From NCBI GenBank assembly GCA_044892525.1, contig CM097885.1, forward strand, positions 13,022,001-13,086,000: DNA of 64,000 nt. Reading direction: 5' to 3'. The translations under genes and the position numbers were made by a program. The notes beneath the pieces are model-generated. The model was not told where the DNA came from, searched no databases, and saw nothing but the letters and a program-made list of their open reading frames with translations. The first letter of the stretch is position 1, and every line of letters starts with the position of its first letter. The stretch comes from Schmidtea polychroa. Its lineage: Eukaryota. Of the stretch, positions 26,201 to 29,200 are shown one piece after another.

Positions 26201-29200
26201 TTCTGTATATCCTACAATCATTTTCAAGTAAATTTAAAGTTAACTGGTTTCTTAACTTATGTTTTTTAAAGTTCATCAATGAGTAAATATTCTTAGAAAA
26301 TTATTGAAAAAATTATTTAGTGAAATATATTACAAACTTATCATTAAAAATTTATTCTATCACTTGAAATTAATTTTTATTTAAAAACTATTCAATAAAA
26401 TACCACTAATTATCAAGAAATTAATTAAATTTATCAATTAAATTTATCACCATTAAAACTTTTAATCAGTCAACATGAAATTCTTAGAAAATTATTCAAT
26501 ATCCTCATAAAAATTTATCCTACCACTTGATTATTGTACAAACTCTAATTATTAACCTCATTAAAAATAAATTTTTATTTAAAATTAAAAAACAAATCAA
26601 TAAAAATACATTCAATTATCAAGAAATTAATTAAATTTACCTTAGAATTAGCATTAAATTATTAAAAATTCACAAAAAAGATAGAAATCCACAAAAATAA
26701 TAAAAAATTACAAAAATGATGGAAATTCACAAAAATGATAGAAATTCACAAAAATAATAGAAATTCACAAAAAAGATAAAAATTCATAAAAATGATAGAA
26801 ATTCATGAAAATAATAGAAATTTACTTGAATATTTAATAAAATCATCAACTCTAAAAATTATCAATACCTTAAACAACAAATTTGTCAAAATAATCTTTC
26901 AAATAAAAGCATTAAATACCTTTACGACTAATACCCTTGCGACATGTTGAATGTGAGTAGTACCCTTGTGAGCAATACCCATAGGGGGACAGAATATTTT
27001 GTCGGATAAACTCAGAGTATATATTAATTAACTCATTCAAATTTTCATTGAATCAGTAAAATTATCATAAATTTCGATAAAAATTCTAAAGTGGTAAGCA
27101 ATGTAAAGAGAAATATTCTTTAAACTTTGATAAAATTAGCAATGAAGGTGGTAAGAATCTTCATTAAAGTGAAAAAAAATATTCATTACTCGATGATAAA
27201 TTCAAATGGGTGAAAATAATTGGTAGAATAATTCATTAATGGATCATAGGAGGTAAATAATGAGAAGTGGTATAGATAATATGAAGGTTGATAAGAATGC
27301 AAATATATTAATTGAATTTATTTAAAATTATTTCATAAAATTCATAAAAAAATTTAATAAAAAAAATCTTAAAAGAAATATTTGTGGTGAATAATTAATC
27401 AAAATCGATGTAATATAATTCATTAAATATCGGAGTGGGGGTTATAGGCGAATAATTAATGGAAAATCGAAGGGATATAAGTGATAAAATAGTGGAAAAT
27501 TGGGGGATATTAGTGATAATAATTAGTGGAAAATAGAGGAAAATATGAGGATATTGAATAATTTTCTAAGAATTTCATGTTGACTGATTAAAAGTTTTAA
27601 TGGTGATAAATTTAATTGATAAATTTAATTAATTTCTTGATAATTAGTGGTATTTTATTGAATAGTTTTTAAATAAAAATTAATTTCAAGTGATAGAATA
27701 AATTTTTAATGATAAGTTTGTAATATATTTCACTAAATAATTTTTTCAATAATTTTCTAAGAATATTTACTCATTGATGAACTTTAAAAAACATAAGTTA
27801 AGAAACCAGTTAACTTTAAATTTACTTGAAAATGATTGTAGGATATACAGAAATTTAGTTTGCTGTTATTGCTTGAAAATGATTGGTTGAATCGATGAAG
27901 AATTATCATCAACAAATATATATCACCTCCAGTTAGTTATTTGATGGTAAATATTTGTAGGAAATAATGAGTTTATTATATCTTTGTTACATAAGTCGAC
28001 TTTAGCGTCAAAATGTGTTTTTAAAATAAATTTTAATTTTAAAATACCGCAACGTAATATATTTTTCCCTACCCTTCCATGATTTTGATTGGTTAGTGGG
28101 CTCTTACTACATAGCTTCTAAATTATTTCAATGGAAGAATATTTGGTATCTATAACAGTTTATGAAAATTCTTATTTTTTGAAGAATTCTCTAAGGATTT
28201 TAAGAGGATTGATATATTAAAGGGGATATAACCTCAAGGGATATAGTTGGTTAGATATTGAAGTTTAAAGTGGTAGAAATATTTACTGAGAGATCAGATA
28301 AGATGGGAAAATATGATCTTTAGAGGGGATATATTCGGTTAAATTTAATGAAGGATGGGTTAAGATGGGAATATATCATTGTAAGGGGGATATAGTCGGT
28401 TAAATTTAATGAGAGATCAGATAAGGTGGGAATATATCATTGTAAGGGAGATATAGTCGATTTAATTTAATGAAGGATGGGTTAAGATGGGAATATATGA
28501 TTTTTTAAGGATGATGTTGGTAAAATATCAATGTTTTAAGGGAAATTGCAATTAGTCAGTTATGAATCAATAATAATGTGAAATTATATCGTTTTATTAG
28601 GTTGTGATTAATTTAGAACAATGTTTTATTAAGTAGGGATAATGATCTATTTACTTGGTTTTGACAATGAAAACTTTACAGATAATTGGGATTGATATCA
28701 ACTTTAATTTATTTTTATCTTTATTTAGACGGAGAATGACAAAAGTTAAGAAATATGGACTTAAAACATTGACTAAATAAAATTGATCTTTATTGAAAGA
28801 AATTTATCGTGTGATTTTAATTAATAATTAAATCGGTTGAATATCGGTAAAAATGATCATTTGAAGAAATATATTTTATTGAATGGATAAATTTAATCTT
28901 TCAATGGGACCTAGTCAGTTATATTTATTTTAAATTTCAAATAGAATGATTTATTTTTAGAATAAAAATTTAATTATAACCGGTTTTATCATTAGATTTT
29001 ATAAATTATTTAGGGTTAATGATTTTACATGTTTTATAGGGAAATATTCGTGATAATATGAATTAAAATTAGAATTATAGTCATTTAAGGGATTTAAGCA
29101 ATCTTATTAGTCTGAGGTAAATATATAACCTTTTAAGGATATTTATCGATAAAATACTAATCTTTAAAGATATAGTTATTTCAAGGAAATTTGATGCTTT

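What the first reader, a model, noticed from the sequence alone, without database searches (positions are those of the whole stretch)
26941..27025. Cis-motif shared between the palindrome and the inner edge of the Polinton TIR
Seen: the palindrome spacer contains TGTTGAATGTGAGTAGTACCC.TGTGAGCAATACCCATAG.GGGACAGAATATTTTGTCGGATA, nearly identical to 18096-18159 (and 4222-4285 reversed). A diverged version (TATCCGACAGGATGTTTTGACCCCCTAAG.GTACT plus GGTCGTAAGGGTACT repeats) sits in both arms at ~23741-23830 and ~30200-30277. The elements otherwise share little sequence. Inference: a conserved functional signal (packaging, origin or enhancer) tying the non-coding element to Polintons, by analogy with the adenovirus packaging signal next to the ITR.
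Basis: partly seen in the sequence, partly recalled or inferred. Interest (0 to 1): 0.8.

Follow-up and report, generated by a model that had tools for sequence, protein, structure and literature searches.

The report
Shared control module in Maverick ends
A roughly 100-base DNA module of short repeats, a fixed core and a TATA-like tail is almost the only sequence shared by a virus-like Maverick transposon and a neighbouring gene-less palindromic element, and it is likely an outward-facing, promoter-type switch that both would need in order to be copied.

Summary
Five copies of a ~100-bp module (three to five 15-bp repeats, invariant TGTCGGATA, then TATATAT) lie in two elements with their own 6-bp target duplications: a 16.1-kb Maverick (inner edge of both TIRs, 1078 bp from each end) and a 13.0-kb gene-less palindrome (both arms plus spacer). 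It is the only strong similarity between them. Public contigs pile up on it in two differently labelled organisms; one nearly lacks the flanking spacer, and similarity ends at the TATA-like tail before varied flanks. It does not fold, matches no Rfam family, lacks the adenovirus A-repeat consensus and the element's TATAAAC box, has no fixed distance from the ends, and is absent from a distant relative. A conserved double-stranded cis-signal is likely (~0.75); packaging is the weaker reading. Best guess (0.4): an outward-facing promoter-type module that opens the TIR for mobilisation. Genome-wide confinement and transcription could not be tested. The scan had already noted the gene-less palindromic family and the TBP-like gene elsewhere in this genome; I saw no note on this module. 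The spacer copy ends 2-3 bp from the palindrome axis (one copy, post hoc).

The parts
26915..27024 (+). Module, spacer copy: 15-bp units at 26915, 26930, 26959 and 26974 (last one fused to the core), a 14-bp GT-rich piece at 26945-26958, imperfect 16-bp dyad 26988-27003, invariant TGTCGGATA 27000-27008, TATATAT 27018-27024. Core is Maverick-type; first unit and 3' flank are arm-type.
   Evidence: outer edge of similarity from loose ends at 27020-27024
18081..18169 (+). Module at the inner edge of the Maverick's right TIR (units 18081, 18110, 18125; core ends 18159, 1078 bp from the element end; TATATAT 18163-18169; then an (AAT)n run)
4211..4314 (-). Module at the inner edge of the Maverick's left TIR, mirror image (core ends 4221, 1078 bp from the element end). 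TIR identity falls from about 100% to 84% and then 76% across the repeats.
30183..30291 (+). Module in the right arm of the gene-less element: GT-rich piece, four units, variant core (5 of 21 letters differ from the Maverick type), TATATAT; 3192 bp from the end
23725..23835 (-). Module in the left arm of the gene-less element: five units, same variant core; 3316 bp from the end
3143..19237 (.). Maverick/Polinton, 16,095 bp; ends AGTAGT...ACTACT; TSD GTAGCC (3137-3142, 19238-19243); TIRs about 1.16 kb; TBP-like, A32-type ATPase, rve integrase, putative double jelly-roll capsid, C5 protease, pPolB (in-frame stop at 16056-16058)
20425..33467 (.). Gene-less palindromic element, 13,043 bp; ends begin AGTAG; TSD GACATG (20419-20424, 33468-33473); one ATG ORF of 60 aa or more (72 aa); arms about 6 kb
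26510..27543 (.). 1034-bp non-palindromic spacer; symmetry axis at 27026.5; C-rich to G-rich switch placed between 26939 and 27209

Best explanation
This ~100-bp module sits at the inner edge of both Maverick TIRs and three times in the gene-less palindromic element, and is likely a protein-bound, outward-facing promoter-type switch that would open the element's ends for copying. Shown: its anatomy (three to five 15-bp direct repeats, a fixed 9-bp core, a TATA-like tail), its polarity toward the nearest end in the four TIR/arm copies, and its persistence between unrelated flanks. Inferred: a sequence-specific factor, probably of the host, binds the repeats and the core on double-stranded DNA; a TATA-binding factor loads on the tail; non-coding transcription or chromatin opening runs outward through the TIR and gives the integrase and the protein-primed polymerase access to the AGTAG terminus. 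Inferred: the gene-less element is a non-autonomous passenger of Mavericks that keeps this module because it needs it in cis, and its spacer copy is an extra copy of the commoner core type, kept or refreshed by conversion inside the module.
For: Module is the only strong similarity between the two elements (E 1.6e-27 against 0.001). Mirror position 1078 bp from both Maverick ends, at the point where TIR identity decays. TATATAT follows the core within 3-9 bp in 5 of 5 copies; chance about 0.7% per position in these non-coding parts (the copies amount to two or three independent cases). In public contigs similarity stops at 27020-27024 and varied flanks follow, in both organisms (tables 7-8), as expected of upstream sites plus a TATA box. 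Summed contig depth peaks on the core: 23.5 million against a spacer median near 1.0 million in X1, and 2.47 million against at most 3,205 in X12 (rough, not copy numbers). No single-strand structure (z -0.26 to +1.13 in 7 of 7 folds), no Rfam match. Among the 17 ORFs scanned no helicase-primase or origin-binding initiator stood out beyond the A32-type ATPase, whose P-loop also drew generic helicase/AAA hits, so an internal origin has no obvious element-coded initiator.
Against: No transcript start, binding or chromatin data. Core-to-TATA spacing differs by 6 bp between the Maverick and the gene-less element. In the commonest single downstream flank of X12 (47 contigs) the TATA-like run stops after five letters. 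The spacer copy ends TATATATT, not a full TATAWAWR (consensus recalled). No ORF of 40 aa or more lies downstream in the Maverick TIR. A distant TBP-encoding relative (L004, capsid 45% identical) has no similar sequence at its TIR edge (10 same-polarity comparisons, 92-372 of 500 shuffles scored as high). Organism C showed no peak (depth about 2). Confinement to these elements rests on one window, where the two elements fill 45% of the sequence and the five copies are about three independent events.
Confidence: 0.4

Rival explanations
1. The module is an independent host-derived or selfish dispersed repeat (for example a ribosomal-spacer promoter piece or a small repeat family) that both elements picked up; the spacer copy is a neutral capture.
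For: Depth on the module is 9 to 23 times that of the spacer in X1, and it is abundant in X12 with other flanks, which a free repeat would also give. An (AAT)n run follows it in the Maverick, like a retroelement tail. An earlier unchecked note (e1-7879912) reports an rDNA-spacer piece inside another Polinton of this genome.
Against: 0 copies in the 34.9 kb of the window outside the two elements; 16 of 16 unit hits at 12 bits or more lie in the five modules (15 were training units). No common target duplication around the copies by inspection. It coincides with the TIR boundary and keeps one polarity toward the ends.
Confidence: 0.2
2. It is a replication or fold-back signal: an iteron-like array plus dyad plus AT-rich unwinding tract where DNA is opened or nicked, and where template switching creates the giant palindromes.
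For: Repeats + dyad + AT-rich tail resemble origin anatomy (recalled). The palindrome axis (27026.5) lies 2-3 bp from the module's outer edge, and the spacer's C-to-G skew switch (26939-27209, lnL gain 21) spans it although the spacer halves show no inverted homology. Three copies hold an internal AGTAGT like the terminus. A shared TIR sub-region has been proposed as origin in a PLV-poxvirus pair (bioRxiv 10.1101/2023.10.16.562556, passages).
Against: Axis coincidence is post hoc, one copy, chance 0.7-13% by definition; spacers of other copies carry many indels. The dyad is broken in the arm copies; no hairpin. Mavericks are expected to prime at their termini (PMC8097293, passages). Arm copies lack AGTAGT.
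Confidence: 0.15
3. It is a boundary element: a terminator, pause or insulator that separates the gene-bearing interior from the TIR.
For: Both end genes of the Maverick point outward, and the module follows their AATAAA signals (4384 and 17745). It is GU-rich on that strand. L004 has an inverted ~90-bp pair directly behind the stop codons of its two outward-pointing end genes.
Against: A gene-less element keeps three copies with no gene to stop; distance from the poly(A) signal differs between the two ends (about 70 and 335 bp).
Confidence: 0.12
4. It is a packaging signal read by the A32-type ATPase.
For: Redundant direct repeats beside the TIR, as in the adenovirus packaging domain (PMC5033970, passages). 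A gene-less passenger of near unit length (13 against 16 kb) would need such a signal if it is encapsidated.
Against: TTTG-N8-CG absent from 5 of 5 copies; 15-bp period; both ends; 1.08 to 6.5 kb from the ends. Not conserved in L004 although its ATPase is 58% identical. The TATA-like tail is unexplained.
Confidence: 0.13

Closest known systems
Maverick/Polinton elements (as described for vertebrates in PMC8097293; passages read)
   Same: AGTAGT...ACTACT ends, 6-bp TSD, TIR of 1.16 kb (published range 46-1447 bp), 16-kb size, pPolB, integrase, ATPase, protease, putative capsid.
   Different: The passages I read describe only the 6-bp end motifs as conserved cis-signals; no internal module shared with a gene-less passenger. 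This element also carries a TBP-like gene and apparent introns.
Adenovirus packaging domain (A-repeats; PMC5033970, passages read)
   Same: Redundant short direct repeats next to the terminal repeat of a protein-primed linear genome with a packaging ATPase.
   Different: A-repeats are TTTG-N8-CG, paired at 21 bp, at nt 220-400 of one end and outside the ITR. Here: other sequence, 15-bp period, both ends, inside the TIR edge, up to 6.5 kb from an end, with a TATA-like tail.
Non-autonomous DNA transposons and viral satellites that keep only cis-signals (PMC6431247, passages read; MITE comparison recalled)
   Same: No coding capacity; helper-type ends and target duplication; retention of a helper-shared signal.
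   Different: 13 kb, almost wholly palindromic, and the shared signal is internal, in three copies, while the rest of the TIR is unrelated to the neighbouring Maverick.
Shared TIR sub-region of CBEV_PLV1 and Mythimna separata entomopoxvirus (bioRxiv 10.1101/2023.10.16.562556, passages read)
   Same: A TIR segment conserved between otherwise unlike elements, proposed as a cis-signal.
   Different: There about 300 bp at 72% identity, under 300 bp from the ends, paired with a primase-helicase and tyrosine recombinase; none of these was found here.

Membership tests
Maverick/Polinton (element 3143-19237) | TIRs, 6-bp TSD, (AGT)2//(ACT)2 ends | tested here: met
   definition from PMC8097293 passages
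Maverick/Polinton (element 3143-19237) | pPolB, retroviral-type integrase, packaging ATPase, adenoviral-type protease | tested here: met
   PF03175 E 7e-16, PF00665 E 4e-8, PF04665 E 2e-7, PF00770 E 1e-6; pPolB has an in-frame stop
Maverick/Polinton (element 3143-19237) | Double jelly-roll major capsid protein | tested here: inconclusive
   No Pfam or PDB sequence hit; atlas feature score 0.98 to clusters with PF21738 on 65% of members, a lead
Non-autonomous Maverick derivative (element 20425-33467) | Helper-type ends, 6-bp TSD, no genes | tested here: met
   TSD GACATG, ends begin AGTAG (sixth letter departs from (AGT)2), one 72-aa ATG ORF
Non-autonomous Maverick derivative (element 20425-33467) | Mobilised in trans by a Maverick | not testable with these tools
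   Inferred from ends and TSD length; beyond five terminal letters and the module it is unlike the neighbouring Maverick, so the helper may be another family
Adenovirus-type packaging domain | TTTG-N8-CG repeats paired at 21 bp | tested here: not met
   0 in 5 of 5 copies, either strand; period 15 bp
Adenovirus-type packaging domain | Within about 600 bp of the terminal repeat of one end | tested here: not met
   At the TIR edge in the Maverick (both ends, 1078 bp from the termini) but 3.2-6.6 kb from the ends in the gene-less element
Adenovirus-type packaging domain | Bound by the packaging ATPase | not testable with these tools
   needs a binding assay
TATA-type promoter | TATA box downstream of clustered binding sites | tested here: inconclusive
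   TATATAT in 5 of 5 copies, chance about 0.7% per position; spacing varies by 6 bp; short run in one X12 flank; consensus recalled
TATA-type promoter | Transcription start 25-35 bp downstream | not testable with these tools
   only unstranded contigs were available
Element-private TATAAAC promoter box | TATAAAC-type word | tested here: not met
   10 sites inside the Maverick, 0 in the modules or the gene-less element
Structured RNA or ssDNA hairpin signal | Folding beyond shuffles or an Rfam match | tested here: not met
   7 of 7 DNA folds unremarkable; 0 Rfam matches at E<=1 in 17500-33600; 0 tRNA genes
rDNA intergenic-spacer promoter or subrepeat | Match to the host's rDNA spacer | not testable with these tools
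   no host genome; the paper search listed no spacer study that I could tie to this host (listing only)

The most novel reading that the evidence does not exclude
The module is the internal mobilisation signal of this animal's Mavericks, the one piece besides the termini that giant gene-less palindromic passengers must keep, and its central copy sets the fold-back axis: opening at the TATA-like tail triggers the template switch that builds the 13-kb palindrome.
Probability: 0.13. Interest if true: 0.85.

Novelty: new variant of a known kind. Interest (0 to 1): 0.5.

Why it matters
How Mavericks leave the chromosome and copy themselves has not been shown, and beyond the 6-bp end motifs I found no described cis-signal (listings, passages). 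A gene-less passenger is a natural deletion experiment: what it shares with the coding element marks what is needed in cis. Here that is a 100-bp module, small enough for reporter, footprint and pull-down tests that could name the factor that wakes these elements.

Tried and rejected
Whole-genome scan: no genome held. Exact or degenerate module patterns: 0 hits in viral contigs and prokaryote genomes; these collections hold little animal DNA, so this says little. Relatives by protein: none in viral contigs; three short metagenome loci without ends; three genome-contig loci, only L004 long enough to show a TIR edge. Module absent from 6 of 6 loci; one bare nonamer lies inside the L004 integrase gene. 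Hairpin or structured RNA: rejected. Spacer as a decayed palindrome: rejected (score 25 against null 25.8). The 14-bp arm satellite as an expansion of the 15-bp unit: not supported by an ungapped matrix (0 hits at 3 bits or more); a gapped test was not run. Homology of the L004 TIR-edge pair to the module: rejected. Expression: no RNA holder listed; X7 is only guessed to be RNA and mirrors the DNA profile, so it was not used either way. The nonamer in print: 332 papers hold it, the 30 listed are unrelated by title. The founding 2006 Polinton paper was not held.

Full report
1. The observation. The stretch is at the stated place. BLAST of 26930-27040 against the window gives four other copies and nothing else below E 0.06: 18083-18159 (72 of 77), 4221-4297 reversed (70 of 77), 30227-30291 and 23725-23790 (82-83% over 66 bases). 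The nine letters TGTCGGATA are identical in all five and occur nowhere else in the 64 kb (expected 0.40; 0 of 100 shuffles reach 5).

2. Context. The region 3143-19237 is a Maverick/Polinton: AGTAGT...ACTACT ends, target duplication GTAGCC, TIRs of about 1.16 kb at 97-100% identity over most bins, and pPolB, rve integrase, A32-type ATPase, C5 protease and a TBP-like gene. The 407-aa ORF is a putative double jelly-roll capsid protein (a lead; no Pfam or PDB hit). The pPolB frame has a stop at 16056-16058. The 'palindrome' 20425-33467 is a separate insertion with its own duplication GACATG and ends that begin AGTAG, one ATG ORF of 60 aa or more, arms of about 6 kb and a 1034-bp spacer. Earlier, unchecked notes describe such gene-less palindromes as a family of hundreds of copies in this genome; I confirmed ends and duplication here, not copy numbers. 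The host was not determined; an AT-rich animal fits, and a preprint reports a Maverick expansion in Dugesia planarians (10.64898/2025.12.11.693146, passages), which is compatible and no more.

3. Anatomy. Read toward the element's end, each copy has three to five 15-bp direct repeats, a 14-bp GT-rich piece among or before them, a G-run, a 21-bp core ending in TGTCGGATA, and TATATAT 3 bp (Maverick) or 9 bp (gene-less element) further on. The 21-bp core is identical in the spacer and both Maverick copies and differs at 5 positions in both arm copies. The spacer copy is a mosaic: Maverick-type core, arm-type first repeat and arm-type 3' flank. Over 77 bp it differs from the Maverick copies at 5 and 7 sites, while these differ from each other at 8. 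In the Maverick the core ends 1078 bp from each terminus, and TIR identity decays across the repeats (100%, 84%, 76% in successive 50-bp bins), so the module marks the inner TIR boundary. In the gene-less element the distances are 3316, 3192 and about 6500 bp. With microsatellites masked, the module is the only strong match between the two elements (E 1.6e-27; best other 0.001, AT-rich). A matrix of the 15 full units finds 16 hits at 12 bits or more, all in the five modules (15 are its own training units), and none in the 34.9 kb outside the elements; at 9 bits there are 3 isolated outside hits. As the five copies amount to about three independent events and the elements fill 45% of the window, this is weak evidence of confinement.

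4. Other DNA. No genome was held. Of 24 runs listed I laid four, all contig sets, on 26830-27560 at 80% likeness. In X1 (organism A) summed depth peaks at 23.5 million on 26980-27004; the median of 23 spacer bins outside the module is about 1.0 million and the highest 2.7 million (counted by hand from the table, leaving out the five module bins and the two end bins). In X12 (organism B) the peak is 2.47 million, the highest bin outside the module 3,205, and 19 of 30 bins are empty. Listed pieces run from about 26926-26935 to 27020-27024 in both, and several different flanks follow: (AAT)n in X1, at least four others in X12. The arm-type letters at 26992 and 26998 occur in 28-29% of depth in X1 and 18-20% in X12, consistent with both core types existing in both; 55 of 95 variant rows were not shown. 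X16 (organism C) has no peak (depth about 2). X7 mirrors the DNA profile and is only guessed to be RNA. The tool warns that these depths are not copy numbers. So the module is shared by many more sequences than the spacer and outlasts its flanks. That fits a signal common to many Maverick-type families, and it also fits a free repeat.

5. A distant relative. L004 is a TBP-encoding Maverick with capsid 45%, ATPase 58% and integrase 47% identical. It has an inverted ~90-bp pair directly behind its two outward-pointing end genes, ending outward in TATATA (left against right score 70, 0 of 500 shuffles), and a possible terminus about 750-850 bp further out. Its sequence is not similar to our module, and TATATA is common in that TIR (13 overlapping matches). 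It is a positional analogue at best; the module's sequence is lineage-specific.

6. What it is not. It does not fold as single-stranded DNA (7 of 7 z-scores between -0.26 and +1.13), matches no Rfam family and holds no tRNA. It lacks the adenovirus A-repeat consensus, whose definition and 600-bp limit I took from PMC5033970 (passages). It lacks the TATAAAC box that occurs 10 times inside the Maverick (lead from note e1-7879962).

7. Mechanism. A directional array of repeats, a fixed core and a TATA-like word at which similarity ends is most simply read as an outward-facing promoter-type module (0.4). No ORF lies downstream, so its product would be non-coding transcription or open chromatin over the TIR, which would expose the terminus to integrase and polymerase. 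A gene-less element needs no gene promoters, so keeping three copies points to a role in mobilisation. All of these functional steps are inferred. Against it: a 6-bp change in core-to-TATA spacing, a short TATA run in the main X12 flank, and no RNA evidence. Rivals: an independent or host-derived repeat (0.2; an unchecked note reports an rDNA-spacer piece in another Polinton here, and I could not test it); a replication or fold-back signal (0.15); a packaging signal (0.13); a terminator or insulator behind the end genes (0.12; AATAAA at 4384 and 17745 precede it).

8. The axis. The palindrome's symmetry axis is at 27026.5, 2-3 bp from the module's outer edge, and the spacer switches from C-rich to G-rich between 26939 and 27209 although its halves show no inverted homology. 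The chance is 0.7% for that closeness to one edge and 13% for falling in or near the module. It is post hoc and from one copy, and other spacers carry indels. It is the basis of the novel case.

9. Novelty. Non-autonomous elements that keep cis-signals are a known kind (PMC6431247, passages). Vertebrate Mavericks are described with conserved 6-bp end motifs (PMC8097293, passages); a lizard survey found no non-autonomous Polintons (PMC3014272, passages); a shared TIR sub-region was proposed as an origin in a PLV-poxvirus pair (10.1101/2023.10.16.562556, passages). PMC8532177 (passages) shows planarian Polintons gain promoter marks on differentiation, which suggests where RNA data may exist; PMC11410931 gave nothing relevant (one passage). 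Searches (listings only) showed no paper on such a module. The 2006 and 2007 founding papers, Repbase entries and all supplements were not seen and could describe non-autonomous Polintons or TIR motifs. Verdict: a real, well-defined and apparently undescribed cis-module, function unproven; new variant of a known kind; interest 0.5.

Noticed in passing
window 3863-4153 and 18260-18518: Each Maverick TIR holds 9-10 exact TCAAGGTCA words in a 17-bp array just outward of the module, none elsewhere in the window. I recall this as an NR5A/ERR nuclear-receptor site; none of the 8 papers listed held the word.
   Followed up: partly
window 12938-13590 and 18019-18040: Internal array of ~57-bp repeats with a palindromic core upstream of pPolB, and one related copy 40 bp inside the right-TIR module; absent from the gene-less element.
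   Followed up: partly
window 20425-33467: Arm identity is 99-100% over the inner 1.5 kb but 87-98% in most outer bins and 77-87% in the satellite: homogenisation is strongest near the spacer.
   Followed up: partly
window 7524-7568 and 10810-10860: Apparent short AT-rich GT-AG introns in the integrase (in frame) and protease genes, read by eye; more seem to lie near 11950-12480.
   Followed up: no
window 18107-19237 and 3143-4273: The module contains AGTAGT pointing outward (18107, 4273, 26956), so each Maverick TIR segment from there to the end starts AGTAGT and ends ACTACT like a miniature element. May be chance.
   Followed up: partly
window 19175-19187, 20452-20470, 33415-33436: Long G/C runs about 30-60 bp from the termini in both elements, in different orientation.
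   Followed up: no
L004 1-103 and 11222-12068: Maverick-like contig with a TBP gene inside a bacterial MAG record, probably misbinned eukaryotic DNA; its right TIR has three ~140-150-bp repeats, echoing the three 195/214-bp repeats of the window's Maverick.
   Followed up: partly
window 40936-42786: Open 616-aa hAT-type transposase with a Spin-doc zinc finger.
   Followed up: no
window 43517-44336: Fold-back of two 271-bp arms at 93% with a 278-bp loop, MITE-like; no module in it.
   Followed up: no
window 35520-35880 and 37245-37697: A decayed stretch that reads like the start of Hsp90 (by eye, recalled, untested) and a proteasome-subunit fragment.
   Followed up: no
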